A model generated the notes under the pieces. The model was not told the DNA's origin. It made no database searches and saw only the letters and a program-made list of their open reading frames with translations. The translations under genes and the position numbers were made by a program. Source: Chiloscyllium plagiosum (lineage: Eukaryota). From it: a stretch of DNA of 64,000 nucleotides. This document shows, piece by piece, positions 4,246-61,212 of the stretch; the first letter of the stretch is position 1; each line of letters starts with the position of its first letter. The stretch lies in assembly GCF_004010195.1 (NCBI RefSeq), contig NC_057753.1:4748887-4812886 (forward strand), given 5' to 3'.

Positions 4246-5022
4246 TTACTCATGAACTTGGTGGTGTCTCAGCAGTCTAGAAGACTGACAAAATCCCTTC
4301 CCACACACTGAGCAAGTGAACGGCCTCTGCCCAGTGTGAAGCAGATGGTGTTCAGTAAGTTGAGATGATCGTCTGAACCCAGTCCCACAGTTAGAGCACC
4401 TGAAAGGTCTCTCATCAGTGTGAATACGTTGATGGGACATCAATTCCCTGGAACTCTTGTAGCACTTCTCACAGTCTGAGCATTTAAATGGTCTCTCATC
4501 AGTGTGAACCCGCTGGTGTGTCAAAAGGTTGGATGAATTAGTGAATCTCTTGTCACATTCAGAACAGTTGAAGGGCCTTTCTCCAGTGTGAACTCGCTGG
4601 TGTCTCAACAGGCTGGATGACTGAGTGAATCCTCTCCCACACTCAGAGCAGGTGAATGGCCTCTCTCCAGTGTGAACTCGCTGGTGTTCAGTGAGTTGAG
4701 ATGATCGTTTGAATCCAGACCCACAGTGGGAACAGTTGAATGGTCTCTCATTAGAGTGTACACGTTGATGGGACATTAGTTTCTCAGAGCTTTTAAAACA
4801 GTTCCCACAGTCAAAACATTTGAAAGGTCTTTCTTCAGAGTGAATCAGCTGATGTTTCAGCAGATGGGCTACCTGGGCGTATTCTTTCCCACACTTGGTG
4901 CAGGTGAATGGTCTTTCCCCAGTGTGACTACGTCGGTGAATTTCCACCTGAGAAGGATAATGAAATCCCTTCCCACAGTCTCCACATTTCCAGAGTTTAT
5001 GAACAGAGCTTTTTCCTGCCAT
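4246..5022 (-). CDS. ZNF-1: tandem C2H2 zinc-finger protein, 9 fingers, no effector domain
   Basis: ORF 4246-5040 with ATG at 5022 in TTGAACATGG context; TGERP/TDERP linkers; acceptor TTTCACAG before 5132; stop TAA. Confidence 0.93.
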
Positions 5023-5189
5023 GTTCAAATCTGATGACACTCAAGTTATATTGTATTGGACAGTTCTAACAAATCCTGATGTGTGATGTTTGGTTTCAGT
5101 TTCACAAGTGTAAACCCTCCCCTTCTAATATCCTGTGAAACTGATTTCAAACAAAACAAAAACCAGTGACACAGAATATACAAAATGCA

Positions 5190-5310
5190 AATGCTGGTTG
5201 TGAAATTAAACTGGATGACTCTGGTAATTTGTGGGGTCAGCACTAGGAAAAAGTGACCATGAAAGCCATTGAATTGCCATAAAAACCCAACTGGTTCACT
5301 CCTATTATTC
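5190..5310. mobile_element. Ancient SINE fragment (SacSINE1/DeuSINE-like) just upstream of the ZNF-1 acceptor
   Basis: GTGACCATGAAAG...AAAACCCAACTGGTTCACT; the same fragment occurs at the same position in ZNF-3, ZNF-4 and ZNF-6. Family name is tentative. Confidence 0.5.
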
Positions 5311-5546
5311 AGATGTATCAGTAAACCTAGTTTGTGCTGTAATGACTATGACTCATTTTTGCGGTCTTACCTCATAACTTCACCAGTATAACTGAGGTGT
5401 CATTTGATTAAATCTGCTCTGTGTTCTCTCTGAGGCTAATACAGTGTTTCCATCCTCAGGTGCACTGCCTAGAGCTAAATACATATTCCAGTCTGGTCTA
5501 ACCAGAATTATGAATATCTCAGTGTTTGTTTCAGTCTCATTCATAC

Positions 5547-5690
5547 CTGAAATCCTTTTTCAAGGATAAACATTTCTTCTTTCACATTCAAAAGCTGGTG
5601 ACATTCAAGGTGCTGATGAATGGAATGACTCTGTCAGGTCGTGATGACATGTTTCGTTTGGGTTTCTCGTGGACCAATCCTTCCCATTTC
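5547..5690 (-). other. Predicted non-coding 5' UTR exon of ZNF-1
   Basis: Acceptor CCTTTTCTAG, donor GATTTCAG|GTATGA; paralogous to 25779-25884 and 50960-51099. Confidence 0.6.
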
Positions 5691-5799
5691 CTAGAAAAGG
5701 GGTTTACCACAGAAAAATCCTTCAGACGTTCATTCTGGAATAAAATTGCAGCAGAGACTCACATTCCTCTTGGTTTGAGCTTAATCTGTGAGCGTAGTC

Positions 5800-6560
5800 A
5801 AAGACTGCGCACGCGCCCTGCAGCATCTTGCTCCCAATAAAGATGGCGGCAACGCGGGCGTTCACGGAATATTGCCCCCAATAAACATGGCGGCGAGAAC
5901 CCGGGCCTCTTACCACCTGTCGCCCGCAGCCGTTTTCCCGTCTGCTGCAAACGCAGGACCGGGTGTTTCTAATTCTCTAGGCCCGGTGTTTATGAAACCT
6001 CCCAGTGGGCAATGGCTCAACTTCATTCCCGTTCTCGGCCGTCAGCTCCCTCTTTACCTTCCTCATGCTCTCACCCAGACTTCAGCCAGGGGACAGTGAG
6101 GTCGGCAGATGCTGAAGATCACAGGCTTCCGACAGGTCCGCCCCGCTGCTAGCTCCACCCATCTTTCAGTCCTATTGGTTGGAGGACCAGCTGCCAATCG
6201 GTCCTCCAGCCCCGCCCACCTCCGCCCCCCCCCGCCGGTCGGAGCCACCTTCCAGCGCGCGGGATCCCCAGTGTGACCAGGGGCGCGCGCTGGACCTGCG
6301 GCCGCGCGGAATTGCGCAGCGACTGAAATCCCACAGGGTGGGCGGAGAGGCTGCAGGAAGACCCTCCGGAGAGCCGACACGAGATGCCAAACGGTGCATG
6401 CGCCCTAGACTTCTGGCGCCCCCACGATGTGAGCAGGACGCCCACGTCCATGAGCCCAGAGAGACAATAACTTCCTCATTGAGGTTTATGATTCGCGCTC
6501 TGCACCCACACACACACGGTATGGAGAAATGAATCCAGCCGGCGTACAGCGAGGGAGTAA
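5800..6560. promoter_or_regulatory. CpG island, bidirectional promoter of ZNF-1/ZNF-2
   Basis: CpG-rich; CCAAT boxes at 6174 (reverse) and 6194; GC boxes; YY1-like AAGATGGCGG 5840 and AACATGGCGG 5884; candidate donor AAG|GTAAAG near 6058 (-). Confidence 0.8.
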
Positions 6561-7001
6561 AACTGGAACTGGGAGATGCTACAAATGCTGGGTTTACATT
6601 TCAGCAGCGGAATGCGGGAAGAGTATGGTTTGCAGACCAACATCTCTGAGAAACAAGCTGGTAGGACGATCTCTTCCCACATTTGGAACAAATAAACGAT
6701 AATACGCTGAATTGACAAGTCTGTGTGGTCTGCACACTGCTAAGAATCTTGCAAACTCTTTTTCCAGGGTAATAGGAGGAGGGGAATTTACAAACAGAAA
6801 GCTGAAACCCAATATCACGTGGAGGTTTGACAACGTCACTCAATTCCTTCCGATCAGACTTTGAATGTACACAGATTGTTCTGTCTTTTGGGAGAACTGG
6901 GAAAGCACTGACTGGAACAAGTACGAACATTGCACTTAAGCATTGCGTGTGTGGGAAGAATCTTTATCTGGTTGTCCAACCCGGCCAGTAACGTTGACAC
7001 C

Positions 7002-8027
7002 ATGAAAAAACAATGGAAATGTGAGGATTGTGGTAAAGGATTCAAATATTCATGCCGGCTGGAAAGTCATCGCCGGAGTCACACTGGGGAGAAACCCTAC
7101 ATTTGTTCCATGTGTGGAAAGAGATTTACTCAAACAATGTCCCTGATGTCACACCAGCGAATTCACACCGAGGAGAGGCCCTACAGCTGCACTCACTGTG
7201 GGAAGAGGTTCCGGTATTCTTCCACCCTCACTGCACACCAGCGCATCCACACAGGGGAGAGACCGTTCACCTGCTCAGTGTGTGGGAAGGGATTTACCCA
7301 GTCATTTGTTTTGGTGAGGCACCAGAGAGTTCACACTGGGGAGCGACCGTTCAGCTGCTCCGTTTGTGGGAAGGGATTTGCTCGGTTATGCAGCCTCCAG
7401 TCACATCACCGAGTTCACGGATCCGAGGGGATGCCGTTCAGTTGCACTTCCTGCGGAAAAAGGTTCAGGCATTCTTCCACACTCACAGCACACCAGCGCA
7501 CGCACACTGGGGAGAGGCCCTATATCTGCGCCGTGTGTGGGAAGGGCTTCACTCAGTCGCGGTACTTACTGACGCACCAGCGAATTCACACTGGGGAGAG
7601 ACCGTTCACCTGTTCTGTGTGCGGGAAGTCATTCACTCAGTCCTCTCACCTGCTGTCACACCAGCGAAATCACACGCAGGAGTGTCCATTCAGCTGCGCT
7701 TCCTGTGGGAAAAGGTTCAAGCATTCTTCCACTCTCGCAGTGCACCAGAGAATCCACACTGGGGAGAAGCCCTTCCCCTGCACTTACTGTGGGAAAAGGT
7801 TCAACAGTTCATCCACCCTCACTGCACACCAGAGGATTCACACCGGGGAAAAGCCATTCACTTGCTCTGTCTGTGAGAAGAGGTTCAGTCAGTCCTTCGA
7901 CCTGGTGAGGCACCAGCGAGTTCACACTGGTGATAGACCGTTCACTTGCCCTGTGTGTGGCAAGGGATTTGCTCGGTTATTTGGACTCCAGTCACACCAC
8001 AGAATCCACACGACAGTGAATACATAA
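7002..8027 (+). CDS. ZNF-2: tandem C2H2 zinc-finger protein, 12 fingers
   Basis: ORF 6930-8027 with first ATG at 7002 (ACCATG); acceptor TTTTTCCAG near 6767; AATAAA at 8145. Confidence 0.93.
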   Translation: MKKQWKCEDCGKGFKYSCRLESHRRSHTGEKPYICSMCGKRFTQTMSLMSHQRIHTEERPYSCTHCGKRFRYSSTLTAHQRIHTGERPFTCSVCGKGFTQSFVLVRHQRVHTGERPFSCSVCGKGFARLCSLQSHHRVHGSEGMPFSCTSCGKRFRHSSTLTAHQRTHTGERPYICAVCGKGFTQSRYLLTHQRIHTGERPFTCSVCGKSFTQSSHLLSHQRNHTQECPFSCASCGKRFKHSSTLAVHQRIHTGEKPFPCTYCGKRFNSSSTLTAHQRIHTGEKPFTCSVCEKRFSQSFDLVRHQRVHTGDRPFTCPVCGKGFARLFGLQSHHRIHTTVNT

Positions 8028-10602: not shown

Positions 10603-11136
10603 NNNNNNNNNNNNNNNNNNNNNNNNNNNNNNNNNNNNNNNNNNNNNNNNNNNNNNNNNNNNNNNNNNNNNNNNNNNNNNNNNNNNNNNNNNNNNNNNNN
10701 NNNNNNNNNNNNNNNNNNNNNNNNNNNNNNNNNNNNNNNNNNNNNNNNNNNNNNNNNNNNNNNNNNNNNNNNNNNNNNNNNNNNNNNNNNNNNNNNNNNN
10801 NNNNNNNNNNNNNNNNNNNNNNNNNNNNNNNNNNNNNNNNNNNNNNNNNNNNNNNNNNNNNNNNNNNNNNNNNNNNNNNNNNNNNNNNNNNNNNNNNNNN
10901 NNNNNNNNNNNNNNNNNNNNNNNNNNNNNNNNNNNNNNNNNNNNNNNNNNNNNNNNNNNNNNNNNNNNNNNNNNNNNNNNNNNNNNNNNNNNNNNNNNNN
11001 NNNNNNNNNNNNNNNNNNNNNNNNNNNNNNNNNNNNNNNNNNNNNNNNNNNNNNNNNNNNNNNNNNNNNNNNNNNNNNNNNNNNNNNNNNNNNNNNNNNN
11101 NNNNNNNNNNNNNNNNNNNNNNNNNNNNNNNNNNNN
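10603..11136. other. Assembly gap (N run)
   Basis: Direct reading. Confidence 1.
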
Positions 11137-15265: not shown

Positions 15266-15883
15266 TTACTTGTGAACTCGCTGGTGCCTCAGCATGTGGG
15301 ATGACTGAGTGAATCCCTTCCCACATTCTGAGCACGTGAATGGCCTCTCCCCAGTGTGAACCCGCTGGTGTGTCAGCAGGTCGGACGACTGAGTGAATCC
15401 CTTCCCACAGTCAGAGCAGGTGAACGGTCTCTCTCCAGCGTTTACTCGCTGGTGTCTCAGCAGATGCGATGACCGAGTGAATCCCTTCCCGCACTGCAGG
15501 CAGGCAAACGGCCTCTCCCCTGTGTGAATTCGCTGGTGTGTCAGCAGATTAGATGACCGAGTGAATCCCTTCCCACACTGTGGGCAGGTGAACGGCTTCT
15601 GCCCGGTGTGAACGCGCTGATGTGACAGCAGGTTGGAATAATGAGCAAAGCCTTTTCCACACTCTGAGCACATGAACGGCCTCTCGCCAGTGTGACAGCG
15701 TAGATGAATTTCCAGTTTGGATGGGTAAGTGAATCCCTTCCCACACTCCCCACATTTCCACGGTTTCTCCCCAGTGTGACTGCACTGGTGCTTTGACAAG
15801 TCAGATGAGCGACCGAAGACTTGTCCACATGCAGAACAAGTGTACAGTTTCTCCCTAGTGTGAACAGAACTTTTCCCTTCCAT
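15266..15883 (-). CDS. ZNF-3: C2H2 zinc-finger protein, 7 fingers (finger 5 has His to Asn)
   Basis: ORF 15266-15889 with ATG at 15883; acceptor TTTTACAG before 15985; predicted 9.8-kb intron to the exon at 25779-25884. Confidence 0.92.
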
Positions 15884-16339
15884 TTTCAAAATCCGCTGAT
15901 AAGTGGGTTATGAGAAATCAAGCGAATCTGTCAGATCTGGAAGTGATGCTCAGTTTGGAGTTTCCTGACTGCAAATCCTCCCCTTCTGTAAAACTGATTT
16001 TAAACATAAGGAGAAACAAAAAAAAGTGAACTCAGAAAAGAACAGGCAGGTTGTGACAGAGATAAACGAATCAAGTACTGCCTGGAGCTGATACTTGGAC
16101 AGTAAAGTGACAATTAAAGCTCACATCTTAAAATTTCAACCTGGTTCACTAGTCTCCTTCAGGGAAGGGAAACAGTTCGACTTGGTACAAGACTTCACAA
16201 GGCGACAGAGGTGGGAAGAGGCAGAGAGAAGAATTTAACACATCCCCGACTGTAACAGAACCTTGCTCATTCACACACCATTACGATGCTCATTGAGGTG
16301 CACAGTTTTGTAAATCCAACACCACCCAACTCAGAGTGA

Positions 16340-19657: not shown

Positions 19658-19888
19658 CGGGAAGAAGAAAGTGAGGTCTGCAGATGCTGGAGATCAGAGC
19701 TGAAAATGTGTTGCTGGAAAAGCGCAGCAGGTCAGGCAGCATCCAGGGAACAGGAGAATCGACGTTTCGGGCATAAGCCCTTCTTCAGGAATCCTGAAGA
19801 AGGGCTTATGCCCGAAACGTCGATTCTCCTGTTCCCTGGATGCTGCCTGACCTGCTGCACTTTTCCAGCAACACATTTTCAGCTCTGA
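19658..19888. mobile_element. Palindromic PLE-derived element: 97-bp arms, 1-nt spacer, two hammerheads, 13-bp TSD
   Basis: 19694-19790 is the reverse complement of 19792-19888 with 1 mismatch; TCTGAAATGTAAA at 19645-19657 and 19884-19896. Confidence 0.9.
19788..19827 (+). ncRNA. Hammerhead ribozyme motif with a 6-bp helix I
   Basis: GGAAUC-CUGAAGA-A-GGGC UUAU GCCC-GAAACGUC^GAUUCU; mirror copy on the minus strand at 19761-19788. Confidence 0.8.
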
Positions 19889-20120
19889 AATGTAAATGTC
19901 AAGCATCGAGTGTCATGTGGCCAGGACTTCCATTTTTAAACAAAATTCCATTGACAGGATGCCGGCATCATTGGCGAGGCCAACGCTCCGCTTTTCCAGC
20001 AACACATTTTCAGCTCTGAAATGTAAATGTTAAGCATCGAGTGTCATGTGGCCAGGACTTCCATTTTTAAACAAAAATCCATTGACAGGATGCCGGCATC
20101 ATTGGCGAGGCCAACGCTCC
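19860..20120. repeat. 131-bp tandem duplication starting in the PLE end
   Basis: 19861 repeated at 19992, near-identical. Confidence 0.9.
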
Positions 20121-25778: not shown

Positions 25779-25884
25779 CTGAAATCTTTTGCAACAGACG
25801 GATGAGTTTCGTTCCCCAACGACTGATGATATTCAGGCTCAGGTGAAACAAATGACATTGTCAGATCGTTCTCATTTTATACGC
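25779..25884 (-). other. Predicted non-coding 5' UTR exon of ZNF-3
   Basis: Acceptor T-run-AAAACAG, donor AGATTTCAG|GTACGT; paralog of the ZNF-1 and ZNF-6 UTR exons. Confidence 0.6.
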
Positions 25885-26019
25885 CTGTTTTAAAAAAAAA
25901 CGGTGGTTACAAAGGAGAACAAAAAAAACTCTCAGAAAACACACAGACAACATTTCTCTTGGTTAGAGCTGATTGTGTGCAAGTCCCTCCCAGATGACCC
26001 ACTTTCAAAAGACAGCTGC

Positions 26020-26278
26020 GCATGCACCCCGTCGTACCTTTCCTGTATAAAGATGGCTGTCACGCATGCACCCTGTCGTACCTTTCCTGTATAAAGATGG
26101 CTGCATGCACCCTGTCGTACCTTTCCTGTATAAAGATGGCTGTCGCGCATGCACCCTGTCGTACCTTTCCTGTATAAAGATGGGCATGCACCCTGTCGTA
26201 CCTTTCCTGTATAAAGATGGCTGTCGCGCATGCACCCTGTCGTACCTTGCCTGTATAAAGATGGCCATTGCGCATGCG
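26020..26278. repeat. Minisatellite, 6 units of 37-44 bp, each with YY1-like AAGATGG(C) and GCATGC
   Basis: Units start at 26020, 26064, 26103, 26147, 26184 and 26228. Confidence 0.95.
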
Positions 26279-26279
26279 T

Positions 26280-27115
26280 CCCACCGATCATAGTTCCCAA
26301 TTGAGATGGCGGCGGTAACCGGAGCCGATCATCGCGTGACGCCCTCAACCCGTTTGCTGAGAACGCGTCACCGGTAGATTCTCACTTCTCACTTCTCATC
26401 TCTCTCTCTCTCTTTCTCTGGAGGTAGGCACTGGGTATTTACGAGACCTTCGGGTCCAATGTATCACCCTCTGCGCTGCGCCGCCCCACATCTGACAACT
26501 TCTTCAACAGATACGCGCGACCGACGGTTGATCACGTGCCGTATGGCTAACCCCGCCTTTCGCTCACTCCGATTGGTTGGCGGACGCGCCCGGGGCGTGA
26601 GGTAGGTGGAGTTCTTCTATTGGTCTCTCCTGGCCGTCAATCATTCGCCGCAGCTCGCCCCTCCCTGCGCAGTGGCGGGCCGGCTGGCAGTGATTTGAAG
26701 AGCGCATGCGCTATCGCCATTTTTTTTCCTCCGGGCCGCCGACGGTCGGTGTGTTCTTTGTCTGCTCTGCAAGCGACGTGCAGCAGGCGGACAGGGAGAA
26801 GATGAGAGATAGGGCAGCGGACGCGCGGGAAGGTTCTGTACACGTCTTGGGTCAGTTCTAACGCGAAATGGCAATCTTCGTGCCTCCCGTTCGCAACAAA
26901 CCAGAAAATGGCTCCAGGTTTCGTCGCGGTGTCAGATCCCGGGGACTTGCCGCCATCTTTATTCAGGGTATTGGACTGCGCGTCCGCCATCTTTGTAGGG
27001 GGCAAGGTCTGGAAGGAGTGGGAGGAGCTTGTAACCCATTGTTTAGAGTGGAGACCAAATTGTCCATGAAACTGCATGAACCTTTCACACCCAATGTCTT
27101 TATTCATGAGACAGG
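26280..27115. promoter_or_regulatory. CpG island, bidirectional promoter of ZNF-3/ZNF-4 plus intron-1 element
   Basis: Reverse CCAAT near 26572 and 26619; NRF1-like GCGCATGCGC 26702; YY1-like motifs at about 26304, 26716, 26951 and 26985. Confidence 0.8.
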
Positions 27116-27689
27116 GCGGTGGTACAGCAGGGAAGAAAAGGAAACAAGTCCTGCTCCCATGCATTCTACTATCTCGTGGGACAATATAGTAAAGAAAGAG
27201 CTGCAGATGCTGGAAATCTGAAACAAAAACAGAAATTGCTGGAGGAACTCAGCAGGTACGACAGCAACTGAGGAGAGCAAGCAGAGTTATCACTTTGAGT
27301 GCAGCGACCCTTCTTCAGAGCTCAAGAGGCCGTCGGCTGAATTCCTCCAGCAATTTCTACCCTGGGTGTCCAAAGATCTATGGCTCACTTCAGTCACATG
27401 AAAACCCAGGAAAGAAATCTATAACCCTGGGAAGATGTCATTCTTTGAAAAAAGGGACTGCTAATCTGAGGAGGGGCAATATGTAACAGGGAGTATGTGA
27501 GGTTATCCTTGACCAGAAAGAGGGAATATTGTGATTTTTATCCTGGATTGAAAGGAATAGATTTTGGAAACTGCTTTAATAGCATGTGAGATTAGGAGGA
27601 TCTCCCACACAATGAACTGAAACAGAGGGAAATGTTTAGCTTCTATGAATATTTATCCAGGACTATCCATGATTACTTCTGTAAATTTC

Positions 27690-27800
27690 TTTTGTAGGAT
27701 GATCTGAGGAGCTTTGAAAATGAGAAACTCAAACCAAACATCACATCAAAATTGAACAGAATCACTCTGATCATATGGACTAAGATGTTAGCAGCTTTTG
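27690..27800 (+). other. Candidate 5' UTR exon of ZNF-4, homologous to the start of the coding exons
   Basis: TTTTGTAG| ... GAAACTCAAACCAAACATCACATCA; donor uncertain (GTAAGT near 27806). Confidence 0.45.
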
Positions 27801-27927
27801 TAGTGTAAGTATTTAGTTCCAGGTAATTACCATTCACTGCAAGAAATTTCTTCTTTGAATTTCCGCACTCCCGCCAAGTCGATTTTGTCCAAAGTCTTAA
27901 ATCTGTGCCATAATCGATTCTCAATCA

Positions 27928-34380: not shown

Positions 34381-34824
34381 GGAGGGAACTTGGAGATAGT
34401 GAAAACTACTATCTCCAAGAGGTCCTTCCAAGAGGTTGCAGGAGTATGTGAAAACTATTATCTCCAAGTTCCCTTTGGTTGCACGGATAAAATCACTTTC
34501 TTCCACTCTCTCTGTCTCATTTACCAGCTTCCCAATCATGGAGGCCACAGTCTTTTGAAGGTGAACAGTTGGGTTTTTAACGACAATACAGCAGCTTTCA
34601 CCGTCACATCTCCCTAGTGCCAGCCCCACAAGTGACCGGATTTGTTCAGTTCAATTCCACAAGTTTGCAATTCCTTGTGTTACCCTGCACTCCCTGTTGT
34701 CTGTTTTGAACCGATTTTCACAGGGCTATATGAGGTGTGATCGAGAAACCCGAACCAGATGTCCCATCGTGATCTGGTGAGGTCACTCACTTTATTGTAG
34801 CCTGGGCATCATCGGAGTTTGAAC

Positions 34825-36192
34825 ATGGAAGGTGAAGGCACTGTGCACAGTGGGGAGGAATTGTACACATGTTTTGTGTGTGGGCGAGGCTTCAGCCGAT
34901 CATCGGACCTGTTAGAACATAAATGTAGTGGGGAGAAACTGTGGAAATGTGGGGTCTATGAGGGTGAATCCAGATCCTTGTCTAAACTGGAAACACACTG
35001 GCGCAGTCAGACCACGGAAGGACTCTTCACCTTCTCTGACAGTGGGAAGGCATTCACTTCCTCTTCCGCCCTGCTGGCACAGCAATGGGGTCACGCTGAG
35101 GAGAGACCTTTCAAATGCTTAGACTGCACCAAATGCTTCACAAGTTCTTGGGACCTGATTTTTCATCAATGCGTTCACACTGACGAGAGACCGTTCAGGT
35201 GCGCTCAGTGTGGGACTGGCTTCCGAACATCGTCTGACCTCCTCGCGCACCAGCCAGTTCACACTGGCGAGAGGCCGTTCGTCTGCTCAGAGTGTGGGAA
35301 GGGATTCGCGCAGAGCTCTACCCTTGTGAAACATCGGCGCGTTCACACTGGCGAGAAACCATTCACCTGCTCTCAGTGTGGGGAGGGATTCGCTCAGTCA
35401 TCTCACCTCGTGAGACACCAACGCATTCACACTGGGGAAAGACCGTTCACCTGCTCCGAGTGCGGGAAGGGATTCACTCAGTCGTCCACCTTGCTGGCAC
35501 ACCAGAGGCTTCACACCGGGGAGAGACCATTCATCTGCTCAGAGTGTGGGAAGGGATTCACTCAGTCGTCCAAGCTGTTGATACACCAGAGGCTTCACAC
35601 TGATGAGAGACCATTTCAGTGCCCAGACTGTGCAAAGCGGTTTAAAAGTTCTGGGGAACTGATGTCCCATCAGCGTGTTCACACTGACGAGAGACCATTC
35701 AGGTGCTCTCACTGTGCAATTGGGTTCAAACGATCATCTGATCTCACAGTACACCAGCGGGTTCACACTGGGGAGAGGCCGTTCACCTGCTCCCAGTGTG
35801 GGAAGGGATTCACTTCCTCATCCACCCTGCTGATACACCAGCGAATTCACACTGGGGAGAGGCCCTTTATCTGCTCCGAGTGTGGGAAGGGATTCACTGA
35901 GTTAGCCAGCTTGCTGAAACACCGGAGTACTCACAGCGAGGAGAGGCCATTCACCTGCTCAGAGTGTGGGAAGGGATTCAGTCGGTCGTCAACGCTGGTG
36001 ACTCACTGGCGAGTTCACACGGGGGAAAGGCCTTTCATCTGCTTCAGCTGTGGGAAGACGTTCACTCAATTATGCAGTCTGTTGAGACACCAGCGGGTTC
36101 ACACTGGGGAGAGGCCATTCACCTGCTCAGATTGTGGGAAGGGATTCACTCGATCATCTACCCTGATGAAACATCAGAAAATTCATAACTAA
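34825..36192 (+). CDS. ZNF-4: 13 intact C2H2 fingers preceded by 3 degenerate fingers
   Basis: ORF 34819-36192 with ATG at 34825 (TTGAACATGG); acceptor TTTTCACAG before 34724; AATAAA at 36317. Confidence 0.94.
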
Positions 36193-37379: not shown

Positions 37380-37980
37380 TCCGGGCTCAGCTCTCCAATG
37401 TTGGAGGACCTATGCTCGCGTGTGGTCCTCCAGGCCCGCCCCATTCACGTTGATTGGTGGGAAGACCAGGTCTTCCAGCACTGCCTTCCCTTCTTAGTGG
37501 TCAGGAGCTGCCGTCAATCAACCCTTCCGCCCCGCGCGATGGAGCATGCGCGCTGCCAGTCTGTGGCGCTGATCGGTTAAGGGCGTGCAGGGCCGCCATC
37601 TTTTGGTAGGCCGCCGACGGTCAGCCTTTTGTTTGTTGGATTCGCAAACGGTGAGCACCAGGCGATTTGGAAGGAGAAGGCCACCCGTAGGGGTTGCGCG
37701 GCTCCGCAGCGCCTTATTCAGGCACACGATCCGAGGTTGAAACTCCCGTTTTCAGAAAACGGGAGTCCGGCTCCAGGATCCATCGCGCCAGCAGAGTCTT
37801 CGGGTGATGGCCACCATTTGTATTGGGGGCACTCGGCGTGGAACGGCGCATGCGTGTCCGCCATCTTTGTAGGGGGCAATGTTTGGCATGACTGTGAGGA
37901 GCTGGCTTCCTATTGTTCAGGATGGAGACAACTTATCCATCAAGTTGCATTAGCCTTTCACACCCAATGTCTTGTTGATG
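37380..37980 (+). promoter_or_regulatory. Orphan CpG-island promoter paralogous to the ZNF-4 promoter
   Basis: Shares GCCGTCAATCA, CGCCATCTTT..GGCCGCCGACGGTC and the 120-bp intron-1 element with 26560-27115. Confidence 0.75.
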
Positions 37981-38189
37981 AGGCACAGCAACGGCGCAAA
38001 GGCAAAAAAAGGAAGCAAATCTCTTTGTCCAGATCCCATGAGTCCCAGTGCAGAAACCCATGACCCTGAGGAGGCACCGTTCTGATATTGAGAGGATTGC
38101 TGACCCCAGCAAAGGGCAGTGTGCAGCAGGGAGCATGCACGGTCATCCTGAGTTGGGCGTAGGGGATGTTGTGAACAGGAGAAAGCATT

Positions 38190-40179: not shown

Positions 40180-40420
40180 ATTGTATACCAGCAGGCTTAC
40201 GTTGGAGAGAAGCAGTTCAACTGCTCTGAATTTGGGATGGGGTTCACCCATTCTCCCCCCCCCCCCCCACCCGCTGCCGAGATACCAGATTCCAATTGAT
40301 ATTCATTCACTTGACCAGAAATCTTTCGAATCCTGAGGTTCAGCACGAGATTTTAACCGAAAGGGAAAGCAAGATGAATCGGAGAGTAAAACAAAAGAAA
40401 TTTCAGTTGGAGAGCTATTC
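40180..40420 (+). pseudogene. Zinc-finger remnant and flank, paralogous to 54250-54345 plus 54676-54780
   Basis: GGAGAGAAGCAGTTCAACTGCTCTGAA...CTGCCGAGATACC and TTGACCAGAAAT...GGTTCAGCAC.AGATTTTAACC are shared. Confidence 0.6.
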
Positions 40421-48312: not shown

Positions 48313-49344
48313 CTAAACAACGTGAACTCGCTGGTGTGTCAGCAGGGTGGATGAACGAGTGAATTCCTTCCCGCACTCTGAGCAGGTGAACGGTGTCTCC
48401 CTGGTGTGAGCTCGGCGGTGTCTCAGCAGGTTGAACGACCGAGTGAAGCTACTCCCACACTCACGGCAGGTGAATGGTCTCTCTCCGGTGTGAACTCGCT
48501 GGTGTTCTGTGAGCTGAGATGACCGCCCGAACCCAGTCCCACAGTGAGAGCACATGAATGGTCTCTCGCCAGTGTGAGTCCTTTGATGGGACGTAAGTTC
48601 CCCAGCACTTTTATAGCTTTTCCCACAGCCTGTACACTTAAAAGGTCTCCTGTCAGTGTGAACCCGGTGGTGTTTCAGTAAGTCAGACGATTGAGTGAAT
48701 CTTCTCCCACACATGGAGCAAGAGAACGGTCTTTCCCCAGTGTGAACTCGCTGGTGTACAGTTAATTGAGATGAGTGCCTGAATCTAGCCCCACATTGAA
48801 TGCATCTGAATGGTCTCTCATTAGTGTGAACACGCTGATGAGACATCAGTTCCCCAGAACTTTTAAAGCACTTCTCACAGTCTGGACATTTAAAAGGTCT
48901 CTCCTTAGTGTGAACCCGCTGGTGTATCAGCAGATGGGATGACGTACTGAATCCTTTCCCACACTTGGAGCAGGTGAATGGTCTCTCCCCAGTGTGAACT
49001 CTCTGGTGTATCAGCAGGGTGTGAAAGTGAGCAAAATCCTTCCCACACTCAGAGCAGGTGAACAGCTTTTCTGCAGTGTGACTGCGCCGGTGAATTTCCA
49101 GTTCGGATGGATAATTGAATCCCTTCCCACAGTCCCTACATTTCCATGGTTTCTCCCCAGTGTGACTGTGCTGATGTGTTTCCAACTGGGATGGGTAAGT
49201 GAATCGCTTCCCACAGTCCGCACATTTGCAGGGCTTTTCCCCGTAGTGAATGCATTTGTGTCTCGACAAGCCAGATGATCGCTTGAAACCTCGCCCACAC
49301 ATAGAACATCTGTACGGTTTTTCTCCGCTGCCTTTATCTTCCAT
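48313..49344 (-). CDS. ZNF-5: C2H2 zinc-finger protein, 12 fingers
   Basis: 343-aa ORF, ATG in CTGAACATGG context; acceptor ATTTCACAG before 49557. Confidence 0.94.
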
Positions 49345-49395
49345 GTTCAGAACCCAATGATACTCAAGTTACAGTAAATTGGGTAATTCTGGCAG

Positions 49396-49489
49396 AGCTG
49401 AAAATGTGTTGCTGGAAAAGCGCAGCAGGTCAGGCAGCATCCAAGGAACAGGAGAATCGACATTTCGGGCATAAGCCCTTCTTCAGGAA
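49396..49489 (-). mobile_element. 94-bp PLE family A insert with a hammerhead in the predicted ZNF-5 5' UTR
   Basis: TSD AATTCTGGCAG at 49385-49395 and 49490-49500; CUGAAGA-A-GGGCUUAUGCCC-GAAAUGUC on the mRNA strand. Confidence 0.88.
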
Positions 49490-49799
49490 AATTCTGGCAG
49501 ATCCTGCTGTGACGTTCGCTTTGAGCTTCTCAACTAGAATTCTTCTGTGTTGAATATCTGTGAAATGATTTAAAACAGTGAGAGAGGGTGCACAGAAACA
49601 CAACGGCAGAAACAAAAACAGAGAATGCTGGTGAGGCTTAGCAGGTCTTGCAGCATCTGTAAAGATGTTTCTGCATCTTTCTCCAGACGCTTTCAGATCT
49701 GCAGGGTTACTCCAGCATTTTGTGTCTTTGTTCCAGACTTCCAACACCTGCAATTCTTTCTTTTATTAATGCACGAAGGTCGTCGTACCCTAATGCCAA

Positions 49800-50820
49800 T
49801 GGATGAGATTTGGATGTGAAGGACTGATGCAGCTTGATGGACAAAGTTGTGTCCACTCTGAACAATGGCCAGCAAGCTCCGCCCACTCATTCCAAACATT
49901 GCCCCCTACAAAAATGGCGATTGCACTGCCGCCCCTATCCTTAATGCCCGTATCAAAGATGGCGATCGTCCCGCTCTCAATGGAGGGATCCTGTTTGGTG
50001 CAAACGGCGTGGGAAGAATCAGGAGATGCTTATTCGGGTTCGAGGTGTTTCCGAATTCAGTCCACTCACCCACTGCCCCGTCCAACGCAGAGGCCGATCA
50101 ACCCAATTTCTCACCGATGGTAAATCCGACAGACCCAACATTTTATTCCCCTTTTTGTTACAGATCATTGGCAGTCCAGGGGAAGCGAGAGTGACCACGC
50201 ATGCGTCGACTGTGGCACCGGATCGGGGAGCCACTGGTCAGGGACAGGTCCTCCAGCCAATCGGGGTGAGCCTGGGGCAGGCCCTCCATCCAATCGAAAT
50301 GGATCTAGTACAGGTCCGCCAAGCAATCGGCGTGGTTCTGGGGAAGGTTCTCCCGCCAATCGGCGTGGACCACGGGCAGGTCCTCCAACCAATCGGGGGG
50401 GGGCACGTCCGCCAATAATCGGATTGGGTCTGAGGTAGGTCCTCTAGCCAATCAGGAGCGGGTCCCCCAACCAATCGGCGTGGGTCAGCTGTGCGCGGCA
50501 CGTGACCGTCCGCACTCAGCGCGCAGCCGCGGTGCCGACGCAACGGAAGCCTGGTTCCAGAGCGAGAGTCGAGGGAGGTGGGAAAGTCGGAGAAACATCG
50601 CAGACCGTGTGGGCAGTGAAGTCAGTGTGGGCCTGGAGGATTGATAAGCACGTGGTGAATGTCGCTAGACCCGAGTTAGAAGCTCCCGGTTGCAGGAACG
50701 GGCAGGGGACGTGTTTCCATCGCCATTTTTCTCGGGGGCAACGGTCCGGGAGAGGCTCGTGCGGCCGCCATCTTTGTAGGGGGCAAGGTGTAGAAGGGCG
50801 CATCCGCAGGGCTTCCTTTG
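49800..50820. promoter_or_regulatory. CpG island, bidirectional promoter of ZNF-5/ZNF-6 with a CCAAT array
   Basis: CCAAT at 50257, 50290, (GCAAT 50323), 50356, 50389, 50412, 50448 and 50471; outward-facing YY1 elements at 49800-49965 (-) and 50720-50790 (+). Confidence 0.85.
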
Positions 50821-50959
50821 TCAAGTACCTGGTGTTGTGTGATTTTTAACTTAGAAGGGGAAGATTTGCACACAGCAATCTGAAACCAAGTTCGTGCCTT
50901 CTGGGTTTCTAACTTGGATTGACATTGAATGTTTTCACCTGTTGTAATCTCCTTTCCAG

Positions 50960-51099
50960 AGGGTATGAAATGAGAAGGATTAGCAGACAGGAAACCCAAA
51001 ACAACCAACACGTCTCAGGATCTGATTCGATTTATCAGGATCTGGCTACCTGCCAGACTTTGACAGTATGAAAAGAAAAAGCTTCGGGAAAGACTTCAG
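50960..51099 (+). other. Predicted 5' UTR exon of ZNF-6
   Basis: CCTTTCCAG| acceptor, AGACTTCAG|GTATGG donor; paralog of 5547-5690. Confidence 0.6.
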
Positions 51100-52020: not shown

Positions 52021-52276
52021 TGTGTGGTATATTCCCTTCTCTGAAGGACATTAATGAACCAGTTGAGTGTTTATAGCAATTCAGGTACTTCCCTGGTCCC
52101 TTTTCTTTCCCTAGTGCTGTTAGCACAGATTACTAGTTTGATTCAGCTCAATTTTGAAAATTTCCTTTGTGATTTTGTGGATTCTCTCACTGTTCCTTTT
52201 TTCCCCATTTCACAGGATGTTAGAGGGTGAAGATTTATATTTGGAAAACGTAAATTAAATATCAAATCAGAATCTG

Positions 52277-53188
52277 ATGGAGGTTACCCAATCTGTACTC
52301 GGAACTTCATCTGATTTAAACGTCGAAGAAGGCACCATTCACTGTGGGGAGAAACCATATACGTGTTCTGAGTGTGGAATAGGATTCAGCCGATCATCTG
52401 GCCTGCTGAAGCACAAACGCAGTCACATCAGAGAGAAGGCTTGGAAATGCGGCGACTGTGGGAAGGGATTCAATTACCCATCAGACCTGGAAAGGCACCG
52501 ACGTGGTCACACTGGACAGAAACCGTGGAAATGTGGAGACTGCGGGAAGGGATTCAATTATCCTTCTCAGGTGGAAATTCACCGACGTAGTCACACTGGG
52601 GAAAGACCATTCACCTGCTCCAAGTGTGGGAAGGAATACGCCCAGGTAGCTCATCTGCTGAAACATCAGCTGGTTCACACTGACGAGAGACCTTATAAAT
52701 GTCCAGATTGCGGGACCTCCTTCAAAAGTTCTGAGAAATTGATATCCCACCAACCTGTGCACACTGACGAGAGGCCATTCAGATGCGCTGACTGTGGGAC
52801 TGCATTCAAGCGATCATCTCAACTCATTGTCCACCAGCGAATTCACACTGGGGAGAGGCCGTTCACCTGCTCTGTGTGTGGGAAGGGATTCATTCAGTCA
52901 TTCCACCTGATTACGCACCAGCGGGTTCACACTGATGAGAGACCTTTTCAGTGTCCGGTCTGTGAGAAGTGCTACAAAAGTTCCAGGGAACTGATGAACC
53001 ATCAACGGGTTCACACTGACGAAAGACCGTTCAGATGCTCTCACTGTGGGACTGGATTCAGGCAATCCTCTCAACTCACTGTACACCAGAGAATTCACAC
53101 TGGTGAGAGGCCATTCACATGCTCCAAATGTGGGAAGGCATTTACTCAGTTATCCACATTGCTGAGACATCAGCGAGTTCACAGATAA
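52277..53188 (+). CDS. ZNF-6: C2H2 zinc-finger protein, 10 fingers
   Basis: 303-aa ORF; acceptor TTTCACAG before 52216; closest paralog is ZNF-1. Confidence 0.93.
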
Positions 53189-53464
53189 TTACAGTGATTT
53201 AGTTTTTATTCATTATTAATGAACTATGTTCATCAGTATGTCTCTGCTGATCTTCACAAATTCCAGACGATTTGTTGGTGTTGATATTCTGCATAAACGA
53301 CAAAGAAATCTATCTTTTGTTAAATACAGGGTTTCTAGTCGTCTTAATGTCTTTTCAACAAGTTAGTTCCTTTGAAGGCATCCTCCTACCGAGCCCCCAA
53401 TCTCCATCCAAAAACAGATGTAAGTAGCTCATGATGCATCAGTTCCATTCATTCATTTGCTCTC

Positions 53465-53975
53465 TCTGCAGGAAGAGGTTCTAGTGATTTCCAAATCTGC
53501 AACAACATCCACGAGTTCACACTGGTGAAAGGTCATTCACTTGCTCCATGTGAGGGAAAGGATTCACTAATTCATCAGACCTGTTTGCACACCAGTGCGC
53601 TTAGGGAAGATCTCTTGGTTTTGCAAATTTAACAAAAGTGCTCTATGGATCTGTTGTTCAGCATCAATGTGCTCACTTACCAGTGACTGTTCAGGTCCTT
53701 TCACTGTGGGAGGGGGTTTAGGTGGTCACTGTATGCCATCAAATTCACACCGGGGTGACGCCCATTTTCATACTTTTCAGTGTGGGACAGGAATCACTCC
53801 ATCAACCAACCTCCTGGGATAGCAGAGGGTCCGCAATTAATGAGTGTTTGGTTTCCACAGTTAATCACATCCAGGACTGAACCATGTTAATTGGTTTGCA
53901 CTGATGGTAATAATACCTCAAACGTGGCTACAGTTTAGCATTTTAGGTGAAAATCAACTCAGTCAGATTTGTGTT
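53465..53975 (+). pseudogene. Decayed finger array plus a second 3' UTR module downstream of ZNF-6
   Basis: GAGTTCACACTGGTGAAAGGTCATTCACTTGC.. with stops; TTAATCACATCCAGGACTGAACCATG module. Confidence 0.75.
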
Positions 53976-54004
53976 AAATGTTGAGTGACTTGGTCTTTTC
54001 AGTA

Positions 54005-54224: not shown

Positions 54225-54346
54225 TATATGTAGCAGTAGTTGGCTGTTTGTTTACCTGAGCTCATTGAACACCAGATAGTTTCCACTGGAGAGAAGCAGA
54301 TCAGCTGCTCTGAATTCATTCGTTCTTTATCCCTGCCGAGATACCG

Positions 54347-57269: not shown

Positions 57270-57715
57270 CAGACACCCACGCGGTGCGGAATGTCCCCAA
57301 GTCGTCATAATAGGGAAATGCTGCGCATGCGCAAAGCCGCCGGTGGCTGGAGCCTGTCATGGCGACGGAGAGGTGTTTGCTTCTGAGCTGCTGAAATGTC
57401 AGGAACCAAGCGGGAAGAAATAGCCAATGGATCGGACGGGTGGATGGAGCCGCGTGGTAAGGACCTTGTATAAGATTTAAACCCCGACAGTGATCCTCCT
57501 GTTATCCCGTTTGCGCAAATTACAATGACGTCGCTAGGCTTCCTCCCAGAGGTAGGCCCCTGGTAGCGGACGCCATCTTTGTGGGGGGCGGCGGCGGCGG
57601 CACACATAAGTGGGCGCCATCTTTGTAAGGGGCATTGTTTGGAATGGCTGGACTTGGGTTGTGCTCATTCAGAATGCAGACAGCATGTCCCTGAGGCTGC
57701 ATTGGTCTCACTGAA
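57270..57715 (+). promoter_or_regulatory. CpG-island promoter and intron-1 element of ZNF-7
   Basis: Perfect NRF1 palindrome TGCGCATGCGCA at 57322; candidate donor near 57457; YY1-like CGCCATCTTTGT at 57571 and 57615. Confidence 0.75.
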
Positions 57716-57804
57716 TTGTCATACTGTCCTAAGATTAACATAAATGTTCGGCACATTGTGGGCCAAAGGGCCTGTGCTGTTCTATGTTCTAAAATATACA
57801 TGAG

Positions 57805-58030
57805 AGAGTACAGCATGGAAACAGACCCTTCGGTCCAACCCGTCCATGCTGACCAGATATCCCAACCCAATCTAGTCCCACCTGCCAGCACCCGGCCCAT
57901 ATCCCTCCAAACCCTTCCTATTCATATACCCATCCAAATGCCTCTTAAATGTTGCAATTGTACCAGCCTCCACCACTTCCTCTGGCAGCTGCTTCCATAC
58001 ACGTACCACCCTCTGTGTGGAAAAAGTTGC
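57805..58030 (-). mobile_element. CR1 3' end
   Basis: Tail motifs. Confidence 0.9.
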
Positions 58031-58944
58031 CCAGTCATATGAAGACCCAGTACAGGAATTCACAACTTTGAGCAAGCATCCTCAAATCAAGGGACTGCAG
58101 ACCGCGATGGTCTGGAAGGAATGGTGGTGGCTAGCAATGTTTCTGCAGAGAGCATGGTCATTCTGGGTCAGGAAGGGGATAGGTTTAGTGAATTTCTGTC
58201 TTGGACTGGCAGTAATGTTTTTTTGTAAAAAAAAACTTTTACAGAATGTTACATGAGTAACTGCAGAGTGGAATCTCAAACCAAACATCAGGTCAAAATC
58301 TGACTGTCACTGATGTGTCTGGACATTCATCAGAACTGAGTCTCAAAACAGAGATAGACCATTTCGGAGCCGATTTGTATTAGGGTGAGTGTTGGTCACA
58401 GGGACGATTTAACTTGTGCCTGTGATGTCTCTTTGTTAAAGCTAATTAGTTCATTACACTCCCTGATCTGTGCTTGAAGCCCATCATTTTGACTTTGGGT
58501 GTTTATCTAATTCCCTTCCAATGCCTTTGTCCCAGTTTGACTTTGACTGGAGGTCAAGAAGAAGCTGCTTGGTTCAACCCCGAGGACTTTGGAATCTAGT
58601 CAGCCCCAGCTATTTCCAATGTGAAGTTATCAAAGAAAGAAAGATTACAGGGACAATTAAAGAGACACTGTGAAAGGGTGTTGTTTTAACAATGGGAAAT
58701 TTTTAAACATATGCTTTAGGTCTGCTTTATATTGACATATTTTAAAGCATTATTCTTGGTATTTGAGAACCACTAGCAAGACCAGACCAACTACTTGAAC
58801 TTTTGCAGTCTGTGTTCTAAATACACTCCCACAATGCTGTTAGATAAGGAGTTAGGTGAAAGAACAGGACTAAGGTAAAATCACCAACAGAAAAGTGTAT
58901 TTATTTAGCACCTCCCACATAATAAAACTGTTCAAGGTCTTTCA

Positions 58945-59575
58945 GGTTTGGGCCGTCTATTTAGGGAAGGATGGGCTGGGCTTTGGAGGGGATCCTGAGG
59001 AGGTTTGCAAGAATGATCCTGGGGTTGAAGAGCTTGTCATGTGAGGAGCAGCTGAGGATTCGGTCTGTACACAGTGGAGTTTGGAAGGATGACGTGGTCA
59101 TCTCATTAAAACTTACAGAATACGGAGAGGTCTGGACAGAATGATTGTGAAGATGATGTTTCCGCTCATAGGAGAGCCTCAGAGTGAAGGGGATGAGCCT
59201 TTAGAACTGACATGAGGAGGACATTTCTCAGCCAGAGGGCTGTGAATCTGTGGAACCCATTGCCACCGAAGGCTGTGGATACCATGTCATTGAGTGTCTT
59301 TAAGTCAGAGATACGTAGGTTCTATATTAGCCAGGAGACCAAGGGTTACAGGGAGAAGGCAGGAGAATGGGTTTGAGAAACGTAGCCATGGCAGAGCAGA
59401 CTTGATAGGCCAAATGGTCTATTTCTGTGCCCGATGATGGTTCCTGATGAAGGGCTTTTGCCCGAAACATCGATTTTCCTGCTCCTCGGATGCTGCCTGG
59501 CCTGCTGTGCTTTTCCAGCAGCACTCCAATCTCCAGCATGGGCAGTACACACTTCTGCCTATTTCTGTTCCCGTA
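58945..59575 (+). mobile_element. CR1 3' end with a nested PLE hammerhead fragment (59434-59558)
   Basis: CUGAUGA-A-GGGC UUUU GCCC-GAAACAUC at 59444-59471; 15-bp TSD CTATTTCTGT.CCCG at 59419 and 59559. Confidence 0.8.
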
Positions 59576-60174
59576 TCTTATGATCTTCACCAAGACATAA
59601 TCAGCAACATTTGTATCTATGAGGAGATATTAGGCCTGGTGACCAACAGCATAGTGAATGCTTTCAGGGTTTTATTACAGGGAGAATGTGATTGATGGTC
59701 AGAGAGAGGAAATTCTGAGTCCAGTTAGGAATTGTTAAAGAGGCCGGAATGAAGACTGACGCAGACATCTCAGGAGGGTTGTACAGCTGGAAGAGCTTAC
59801 AGAGAAAGGCATGACCATAACCACAACGGGAAAGACGGACGAGAATTTGAAAACCTCTGCTTCTTAACTTGGGAGCCTAGGTTACTGAGCACAGAGGGTG
59901 ATGGGTGAAGAAAACTCGATGTTAGTATCACACAGGCAGTTTTGGGTGACCTCGAGACTAAGAGGAGGTGAGTTTGCCAGCCTCATGCGAATGACTCGAT
60001 TCATTCAGCTCAATTTTACATCCTGCCTTTGTGTTTTTGCGGGTGCTCTCAAACTTGATTTGTTGCGTGTTGAATCGATTTCACAGGGTTTCAGCAGGAG
60101 AGGGTGTGCAGCTGAGAAACTCAATCCAGACGTCAGTCGGTTTATTGCAACCTGAGGGTCGTTGGGTTTTGAAC

Positions 60175-61212
60175 ATGGAAGGAAACGGCACCGCTCACAC
60201 GGGAGAGAAGCCGTACACGTGTTCGGAGTGCGGTCGAGGCTTCAGCCAGTCATCCGACCTGTTAAGGCACAAGCGCTGTCACACTGGGGAGAAACCGTAC
60301 ACGTGTCCCGAGTGTGGGCGAGCCTTCAGCCAGTCATCCGGCCTGTCAGAACATCAGTGTAGTCACACCGGGCAGAAACCGTGGAAATGCGGGGACTGTG
60401 GGAAGGGATTCATTTCCCCGTCAAAGCTGGAGACTCATCGGCGCAGTCACACCGGGGAGAGGCCGTTCACCTGCTCCACGTGCGGGAAGGGATTCACTGC
60501 CTCTTCCCAACTCCGGAGGCACCAGCGAGTTCACACCGGGGAGTGGCTGGTTACCTGCTCTGACTGTGGAAAGGGGTTCACTCAGTCAACCCACCTCCTC
60601 GAGCACCAGCGGGTCCACACCGGGGAGAAGCCATTCACCTGCTCCGAGTGTGGCAAGGGCTTCACTCAGTCATCCCACCTGCTCAAACACCAGAGAGTTC
60701 ACACCGGGGAGAGGCCATTCACCTGCTGCGTGTGCGGGAAGGGATTCACTCAGTCCTCCAACCTGCTGTTACACCAGCGAGTGCACACCGGGGAGAGACC
60801 CTTCACCTGCTCTGAATGTGGGAAGGGTTTCACGGTGTCGTCCGACCTGCTGAGACACCAGCGGGTTCACACCGATGAGAGACCTTTCAAATGCTCAGAC
60901 TGCGGGAAGTGCTTCAAAAGCTCCGGGGACCTGATGTCTCATCAACGGGTTCACACCGACGAGAGACCGTTCATTTGCTCTGACTGTGGGGCTGGCTTCA
61001 GGCGATCCTCGCAACTTACTGTGCACCAGCGCGTCCACACTGGGGAGAGACCGTTCGCCTGCCCCGAGTGTGGGAAGGGATTCCCTCAGTTATCCCACTT
61101 GCTGAAACATCAGCGAATTCACACTGGAGAGAGACCGTTCACCTGCAGCAAGTGTGAGAGAGGATTCACTCAGTTATCGCACCTGCTGAGACACCAGCGC
61201 GTTCACCAGTAA
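60175..61212 (+). CDS. ZNF-7: C2H2 zinc-finger protein, 12 fingers
   Basis: ORF 60031-61212 with ATG at 60175 (TTGAACATGG); acceptor TTTCACAG before 60087. Confidence 0.94.

What the first reader, a model, noticed from the sequence alone, without database searches (positions are those of the whole stretch)
4246..61212. Effector-less, fast-evolving tandem ZNF cluster: candidate KRAB-independent TE-surveillance family of cartilaginous fish
Seen: seven paralogs are essentially pure finger arrays (4-16 aa leader, 1-6 aa tail). They vary in finger number and helix residues, show birth-and-death remnants, and sit in dense TE DNA. The upstream exons keep no common reading frame with the CDS, which argues against a spliced N-terminal domain. 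Known: KRAB-ZNF clusters of tetrapods and FiNZ-ZNFs of cyprinid fish share this architecture but carry a non-finger N-terminal domain and are linked to TE silencing. Inference: this is a parallel expansion in which any co-repressor contact would have to be made by the fingers themselves.
Basis: partly seen in the sequence, partly recalled or inferred. Interest (0 to 1): 0.8.

Follow-up and report, generated by a model that had tools for sequence, protein, structure and literature searches.

The report
Finger-only zinc finger cluster of sharks
A shark-type genome carries a cluster of seven working zinc-finger genes that have no attached silencing domain, unlike the comparable families of land vertebrates and carps; whether they police jumping genes is plausible but untested.

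Summary
Seven intact C2H2 array genes (74 canonical fingers), three head-to-head pairs, decayed arrays and many retroelements are present; the best short homologs are elasmobranch.

In 6 of 7 genes an in-frame stop lies between the shared splice acceptor and the ATG. The leader evolves like non-coding DNA. Predicted middle exons are recycled leader copies with no shared ORF. No KRAB, SCAN, BTB or FiNZ match was found upstream.

'Fast-evolving' is partly supported: dN/dS is 0.75-0.96 at helix -1/3/6 against 0.39 for the scaffold, not shown above 1. TE surveillance is untested, and repeat density is not diagnostic in sharks.

New lead: a distinctive N-terminal 'W-finger' (Trp, Pro+1, Glu+5), intact in 6 of 7 genes and decayed in one, is a candidate built-in interaction finger.

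Shark ZNF expansions are already counted in Wells 2023; I found no description of this architecture. Verdict: new variant of a known kind.

The parts
4246..5022 (-). G1 CDS, 258 aa, 9 fingers, W-finger first; close paralog of G6
5023..5132 (-). G1 non-coding leader of the terminal exon (predicted acceptor at 5132; in-frame stops at 5127 and 5043)
5547..5690 (-). G1 predicted middle exon, a diverged copy of the terminal-exon leader
5790..6500 (.). CpG island, inferred bidirectional promoter of G1/G2, with two YY1-type motifs (5830-5891)
   Evidence: promoter role inferred
6768..7001 (+). G2 non-coding leader (stops at 6828 and 6909); its 3' part looks by eye like a decayed finger
7002..8027 (+). 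G2 CDS, 341 aa, 12 fingers, W-finger first
15266..15883 (-). G3 CDS, 205 aa, 6 intact fingers plus 1 with His lost; W-finger second
15884..15985 (-). G3 non-coding leader (stops at 15952 and 15910)
25779..25884 (-). Predicted middle exon assigned to G3 (assignment inferred across about 10 kb)
26000..27150 (.). CpG island, inferred bidirectional promoter of G3/G4; YY1-type motif array at 26019-26277 and shared element at 26977-27150
27698..27822 (+). Predicted middle exon assigned to G4
34724..34824 (+). G4 non-coding leader (stops at 34738 and 34798)
34825..36192 (+). G4 CDS, 455 aa, 13 intact fingers; the first three fingers, including the W-finger, are decayed
37500..38021 (+). Orphan CpG island with the shared YY1-type element; probable dead gene with a finger remnant at 40216-40254
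48313..49344 (-). G5 CDS, 343 aa, 12 fingers, two W-type fingers at positions 2 and 3
49345..49557 (-). G5 non-coding leader with a 105-nt repeat insertion and three in-frame stops
49810..50850 (.). CpG island with a CCAAT-box array, inferred bidirectional promoter of G5/G6; YY1-type motifs on both sides
50960..51099 (+). G6 predicted middle exon
52216..52276 (+). G6 leader (stop at 52256)
52277..53188 (+). G6 CDS, 303 aa, 10 fingers; opens at a replacement ATG
57300..57703 (+). G7 inferred promoter with two YY1-type motifs
58245..58384 (+). G7 predicted middle exon
60087..60174 (+). G7 leader, the only one without an in-frame stop; no in-frame ATG reaches it in the models tested
60175..61212 (+). 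G7 CDS, 345 aa, 12 fingers, W-finger third
2261..3854 (-). Decayed finger arrays downstream of G1; 3760-3853 is 96.8% identical to G1 4428-4521
53452..53832 (+). Decayed finger array downstream of G6

Best explanation
This is part of a large elasmobranch poly-C2H2 family that expands by tandem duplication of a whole cassette. The cassette is a CpG-island promoter with a YY1-type element, one or two non-coding 5' exons, and one terminal exon that holds both the ATG and the finger array. SHOWN: the proteins are finger-only under the predicted splicing, their scaffolds are under purifying selection, and positions -1/3/6 diversify faster. INFERRED from C2H2 biology: the variable fingers read DNA sequence. 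INFERRED by analogy with KRAB-ZNFs and FiNZ-ZNFs: many targets are interspersed repeats, which the proteins bind to silence or stabilise. With no appended domain, the output must be passive occupancy or a contact made by a finger. The conserved N-terminal W-finger, with acidic Glu at helix +5, is the best candidate for that contact. My odds: finger-only about 0.85; repeats the main targets about 0.5; W-finger as co-factor dock about 0.2.
For: In-frame stops lie between the shared acceptor and the ATG in 6 of 7 genes. Leader mismatch rates by codon position are 0.30/0.32/0.31 (p=0.90), against 0.21/0.22/0.37 in fingers, and most leader indels shift frame. No effector-domain match upstream. No in-frame ATG-started exon can be joined in G1, G2, G5, G6 or G7. 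Of the 12 named shark and ray models fetched, 5 start at or within a few residues of the same positions (P0121, P0122, P0123, P0124, P0132). Scaffold dN/dS is 0.39, significantly below 1; contact dN/dS is 0.75-0.96. The promoter motif has 10 matches against 0.18 expected. Shark genomes hold 475-3586 ZNF ORFs, and ZNF number tracks retroelement number across animals regardless of accessory domain (PMC10547256). W-finger features are almost absent from 1055 bony-vertebrate fingers.
Against: No binding, expression or silencing data exist here. dN/dS above 1 was not shown: likelihood tests p=0.18 and 0.87, and bootstrap intervals include 1. G1 and G6 keep nearly identical helices over four fingers (1.5 non-synonymous changes in 37.5 sites at dS 0.39), which does not look like an arms race. 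TE density is uniformly high in shark genomes. The W-finger is decayed in G4 and missing where expected in P0121 and P0126. Two shark gene models (P0126, P0138) read the leader in frame, and a third (P0133) has an unrelated N-terminal extension.
Confidence: 0.5

Rival explanations
1. These are finger-only DNA-binding proteins that expand mainly because repeat-rich DNA promotes duplication. They bind host promoters, satellites or each other's genes, and TE control is incidental.
For: dN/dS at contact sites is not above 1. G1/G6 helices are conserved and a two-finger module recurs 9 times in 5 genes. Promoters are housekeeping-like CpG islands. Wells et al. themselves leave the primary function open.
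Against: Contact sites evolve about twice as fast as the scaffold. The olfactory-receptor control in PMC10547256 argues that TE-driven duplication alone does not explain ZNF numbers.
Confidence: 0.28
2. A coding effector exon exists but was missed, through an unrecognised domain, an alternative acceptor downstream of the stops, or a distant exon.
For: G7's leader is open. G3 and G4 each have a weak AG downstream of the last stop. Two shark gene models read the leader in frame. Emerson and Thomas warn that apparently domain-less poly-ZF genes can be annotation gaps (PMC2604467). A 534-N gap lies at 10603-11136.
Against: The alternative AGs are not shared between paralogs, and the joinable peptides are repeat-derived and unshared. 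The leader has no coding signature. The only shared upstream blocks found are the promoter element, the leader copies and a pre-acceptor intronic block. The gap lies downstream of G2 and G3. A leader-only search of longer proteins found nothing (weak evidence).
Confidence: 0.08
3. The arrays act mainly on RNA or as protein scaffolds, not as sequence-specific DNA binders.
For: Several finger classes have short or unusual residues at contact positions: Ser at -1 and mostly at +6 in the recurring module, Tyr/Pro in the W-finger. C2H2 fingers are known to bind RNA and proteins (established knowledge).
Against: Canonical TGERP-type linkers and spacing throughout, with variation concentrated at -1/3/6.
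Confidence: 0.1

Closest known systems
KRAB-ZNF (KZFP) clusters of sarcopterygians
   Same: Tandem clusters, long canonical arrays in one terminal exon, finger-number variation, decayed copies, faster change at -1/3/6.
   Different: No KRAB match and upstream exons are non-coding. KRAB families are reported as lost or absent in cartilaginous fishes (PMC8455134). Coelacanth KZNFs carry KRAB in the finger exon (PMC8835667), whereas here that exon's leader is non-coding.
FiNZ-ZNFs of cyprinids (Wells et al. 2023, PMC10547256)
   Same: Lineage-specific clustered expansion outside the KRAB/TRIM28 system, with an upstream exon plus an array exon.
   Different: FiNZ is a 28-aa acidic domain on its own coding exon. 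There is no match here (one carp sequence as query), and the exon in the matching position is a non-coding leader copy.
KRAB-like ZNFs of ray-finned fish with TRIM33 (PMC11603059)
   Same: Proposed TE silencing without TRIM28.
   Different: They depend on an N-terminal KRAB-like domain. No profile of that domain was available to test, but the in-frame stops leave no room for one in 6 of 7 genes.
Poly-ZF genes without annotated N-terminal domain (Emerson and Thomas 2009, PMC2604467)
   Same: Pure tandem arrays in lineage-specific expansions.
   Different: That paper could not tell true absence from missing annotation. Here absence is argued from gene structure, and a family-specific N-terminal finger type is seen.

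Membership tests
KRAB-ZNF | N-terminal KRAB-A (with or without B) domain | tested here: not met
   Pfam on 7 proteins and on 243 of 379 upstream stop-free segments (those of 40 aa or more): none. An own KRAB HMM from 33 sequences recovers 33 of 44 control N-termini; best window domain E=0.13 among 2714 segments.
KRAB-ZNF | Tandem C2H2 array with canonical linkers in one exon, genes clustered | tested here: met
KRAB-ZNF | TRIM28 recruitment and repression | not testable with these tools
   needs experiment
FiNZ-ZNF | 28-aa acidic FiNZ domain on an upstream coding exon | tested here: not met
   phmmer with carp P0137 residues 1-30: best E about 8; middle exons share no ORF
FiNZ-ZNF | Cyprinid host | tested here: not met
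   best homologs are elasmobranch
FiNZ-ZNF | Expression at zygotic genome activation and TE derepression on knockdown | not testable with these tools
   no RNA data
SCAN- or BTB-ZNF | N-terminal SCAN or BTB domain | tested here: not met
   Pfam; four SCAN-bearing queries, best E 0.25
Actinopterygian KRAB-like ZNF | KRAB-like N-terminal domain | tested here: inconclusive
   no profile of that domain at hand; in-frame stops exclude a spliced domain at the shared acceptor in 6 of 7 genes
Lineage-specific poly-ZF expansion (Emerson and Thomas) | Three or more tandem canonical fingers, clustered paralogs, turnover | tested here: met
Lineage-specific poly-ZF expansion (Emerson and Thomas) | Positive selection at helix -1, 3, 6 | tested here: inconclusive
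   dN/dS 0.75-0.96 against scaffold 0.39, not different from 1; pairwise estimates 1.0-1.45 with intervals spanning 1 and a pairing bias upward
TE-targeting ZNF families in general | Binding enriched on TE sequences | not testable with these tools
   no motif predictor or shark repeat library available

The most novel reading that the evidence does not exclude
Sharks and rays run a third vertebrate ZNF-based repeat-silencing system of about a thousand or more genes. In it, a repurposed N-terminal zinc finger (the W-finger: Trp at the first strand, Pro at +1, Glu at +5) replaces KRAB/FiNZ as the co-repressor or dimerisation dock, so reader and effector are both C2H2 folds.
Probability: 0.15. 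Interest if true: 0.82.

Novelty: new variant of a known kind. Interest (0 to 1): 0.5.

Why it matters
Cartilaginous fishes are the outgroup to all bony vertebrates, are reported to lack KRAB-ZNFs, and carry some of the largest ZNF repertoires counted (up to 3586 ORFs). An open question in the field is whether domain-less poly-ZF genes are real or annotation gaps, and how non-KRAB families could repress. This locus gives a clean structural case that they are real, and a specific 23-residue candidate that can be tethered in a reporter assay. If the W-finger docks a co-repressor, ZNF-based repeat control would not need KRAB/TRIM28 or any appended domain. If it does not, this is an ordinary, so far undescribed lineage expansion.

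Tried and rejected
Homolog search with G7 residues 1-100: ranked by total finger score; none of the 120 listed hits was a named cartilaginous fish, so it served only as background.

Leader-only search among longer proteins: 3 candidates, none significant; weak evidence.

Profile search of 1.84 billion representatives: the profile took in fingers, and the hits were long unnamed ZNF proteins. The best stretch began at leader position 11 or earlier in 5 of 150; what these are stayed unchecked.

Exact look-up of the 7 proteins: 0 of 7 in the collection, so no annotation or expression support. ESM Atlas: generic ZNF clusters only. Rfam and tRNA scans: nothing. PDB search with the W-finger: generic fingers only.

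AlphaFold of the first two fingers: two ordinary fingers, pLDDT 79, pTM 0.46, no sign of a packed two-finger unit.

Considered and rejected: that the shared YY1-type element or the middle exons are hidden coding exons (indels, stops, no shared ORF); and that the leader is a coding linker in this cluster. The first codon-model run fixed kappa at 1 and was replaced. I did not attempt motif prediction, because a hand-made recognition code would not be reliable.
Full report
OBSERVATION. Six-frame scanning finds seven long C2H2 ORFs: G1 (-, ATG 5022), G2 (+, 7002), G3 (-, 15883), G4 (+, 34825), G5 (-, 49344), G6 (+, 52277) and G7 (+, 60175). They hold 74 canonical fingers (9, 12, 6, 13, 12, 10, 12) plus four decayed ones. 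Pfam lists no KRAB, SCAN or BTB row among the families shown for any of the seven. Tails are 1-5 residues. Leaders are 6-15 residues to the first Cys, except G6 (29), which lost the homologous ATG and opens at one further upstream. Decayed arrays lie behind G1 and G6 and near 40.2 kb. At least 33% of the 56,317 non-ZNF, non-gap bases recur within the window. One SINE-like family has 15 loci and one LINE 3' end has 21, with a reverse transcriptase match at 31273-31812 (E=5.7e-18; 1 of 13 ORFs tested had any Pfam hit). The names HE1, CR1 and Penelope are recalled, not tested.

LINEAGE. With the first 100 residues of G3, the 7 best hits and 12 of 42 overall are named sharks or rays: Heterodontus, Cetorhinus, Mustelus, Pristiophorus, Mobula, Chiloscyllium and Hemiscyllium. 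The species was not determined; none of the 7 proteins is in the collection exactly.

GENE ANATOMY (predicted, no RNA data). The genes form three head-to-head pairs around CpG islands: G1/G2 at about 5.8-6.5 kb, G3/G4 at 26-27 kb and G5/G6 at 49.8-50.8 kb. G7 has its own island, and an orphan island sits at 37.5-38 kb. An 18-nt motif with a YY1-type core (label recalled) occurs 10 times against 0.18 expected in 100 shuffles, inside a shared 90-170 nt element oriented with each gene; none lies on G2's side. All seven terminal exons start at a homologous acceptor 61-234 nt before the ATG. A profile of that leader finds further copies upstream of 5 of 7 genes. These have acceptors and donors, three sharing the same donor context, and are probably middle exons recycled from truncated duplicates of the finger exon.

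IS THERE A HIDDEN EFFECTOR? Four lines say no. (a) In 6 of 7 genes one to three in-frame stops lie between the shared acceptor and the ATG; G3, G4 and G5 share one nine codons upstream. (b) Across 12 leader copies, mismatch rates to the consensus by codon position are 0.30/0.32/0.31 (p=0.90), whereas fingers give 0.21/0.22/0.37, and most leader indels shift frame. (c) The spliced models give short, unrelated upstream ORFs; G7, the only open leader, reaches a stop 53 codons upstream with no ATG. A join test (donors matching 7 or more of 9 consensus bases, ATG-started ORFs of 15 aa or more, acceptors with 11 or more of 19 pyrimidines) found no join for G1, G2, G5, G6 or G7. For G3 (11 joins) and G4 (2) it found only unshared, mostly repeat-derived peptides through unshared AGs. 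(d) Pfam on 243 of 379 upstream stop-free segments (those of 40 aa or more) gave no KRAB, SCAN or BTB hit. A KRAB HMM that recovers 33 of 44 control N-termini, a carp FiNZ query and four SCAN-bearing queries found nothing among 2714 segments. Against this: two shark gene models read the leader in frame (P0126, P0138), so it may have been coding, or may be open by chance, in other lineages. A leader-only search of longer proteins was empty but weak.

SELECTION. On a finger tree, dN/dS is 0.39 for scaffold positions (significantly below 1), so these are working genes. At -1/3/6 it is 0.75 or 0.96 depending on the tree, not different from 1 (p=0.18, 0.87); adding +2 gives 0.62-0.77. Nearest-pair estimates are 1.0-1.45 with intervals spanning 1, and are biased upward by the pairing. 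Fingers are short and may recombine, so power is low. G1 and G6 keep almost the same helices over four fingers at dS 0.39. The contact sites diversify, but positive selection is not shown.

FINGER CLASSES. Eight of 74 fingers carry Glu at helix +5; 7 of these have Trp at the first strand and 7 have Pro at +1. All lie at array positions 1-3, in 6 of 7 genes, and G4 has a decayed copy. Among 1055 fingers from 115 named bony-vertebrate proteins (5 unnamed rows of 120 dropped), Trp occurs once, Pro 11 times, Glu twice, and Pro with Glu never. Six of the 12 shark and ray proteins have a Glu+5 finger first or second, though the query contained one, so the sample is biased. In G1, G2, P0123 and P0132 it is the first finger, as if N-terminal erosion stops there (inference). 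An acidic residue at +5 suits protein contact better than the phosphate backbone (inference from C2H2 structure). Against special status: decay in G4, absence in P0121 and P0126, and an AlphaFold model showing two ordinary, unpacked fingers. A second stereotyped two-finger module recurs 9 times in 5 genes.

MECHANISM. Most likely, duplicated promoter-plus-array cassettes make finger-only DNA-binding proteins whose variable fingers sample new targets. By analogy with KZFPs and FiNZ-ZNFs the targets are probably repeats (about even odds). Output is passive occupancy or a finger-borne contact, with the W-finger as candidate (about 0.2). The TE step is wholly inferred. TE density around the genes is no evidence, as interspersed repeats are uniformly frequent in the zebra shark genome (10.1101/2022.10.17.512540, passages).

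LITERATURE. Wells 2023 (PMC10547256; abstract, introduction, first Results sections, Discussion and supplement passages) never mentions sharks in the main text. Its supplement counts 475-3586 ZNF ORFs in the eight cartilaginous-fish rows returned, and its code output lists 444 on one white shark scaffold. Three of its supplementary files were not searchable and could hold more. Emerson and Thomas 2009 (PMC2604467, passages) note many poly-ZF genes without N-terminal domains and could not say why. The whale shark paper reports KRAB families as lost in cartilaginous fishes (PMC8455134, passages). PMC11603059, PMC10380595 and PMC8835667 (passages) cover KRAB-like domains, TRIM33 and coelacanth KZNFs; PMC6887750 (passages) did not confirm the SINE name. 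Searches (open-access PMC and bioRxiv only, listings read) showed no description of this shark gene architecture or of the W-finger; subscription journals were not searchable.

VERDICT. Real and structurally well supported: not a KRAB-, FiNZ-, SCAN- or BTB-ZNF, but a member of the known class of lineage-specific poly-ZF expansions, in a finger-only form. The expansion is already counted; the architecture and the W-finger lead appear undescribed; function is untested. Dimerisation and the identity of the unnamed long hits stay open. Interest 0.5.

Noticed in passing
window 239-304 (-): A further copy of the shared YY1-type promoter element points off the left edge, suggesting another family gene outside the window.
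   Followed up: partly
window 26019-26277: Tandem array (period about 44, about 6 copies) of a unit with a YY1-type core, a GCATGC palindrome and a donor-like site, on the G3 side of the promoter.
   Followed up: partly
window 50241-50480: Array of CCAAT boxes (10 in 500 nt; 33-nt period) in the G5/G6 island.
   Followed up: no
window about 5200-5300, 16050-16160, 34560-34660, 52050-52150: A shared intronic block about 100-200 nt before the terminal acceptor in G1, G3, G4 and G6; possibly an old repeat fragment duplicated with the gene.
   Followed up: no
window 49393-49489: A repeat tail (Penelope-like, by recall) inserted in G5's 5' leader, adding upstream ATGs.
   Followed up: partly
5' leaders of all seven genes: Predicted 5' UTRs carry 1-6 short upstream ORFs each, which could dampen translation.
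   Followed up: partly
window 10603-11136: Assembly gap of 534 N between G2 and G3, downstream of both.
   Followed up: no
window 19860-20120 and 25075-25413: Near-identical (98%) tandem duplications of 131 and 170 nt; recent duplications or assembly artefacts.
   Followed up: no
listing, P0131: A C2H2 protein labelled Salmonella scores 70% identity over half the query; probably vertebrate contamination in that record.
   Followed up: no
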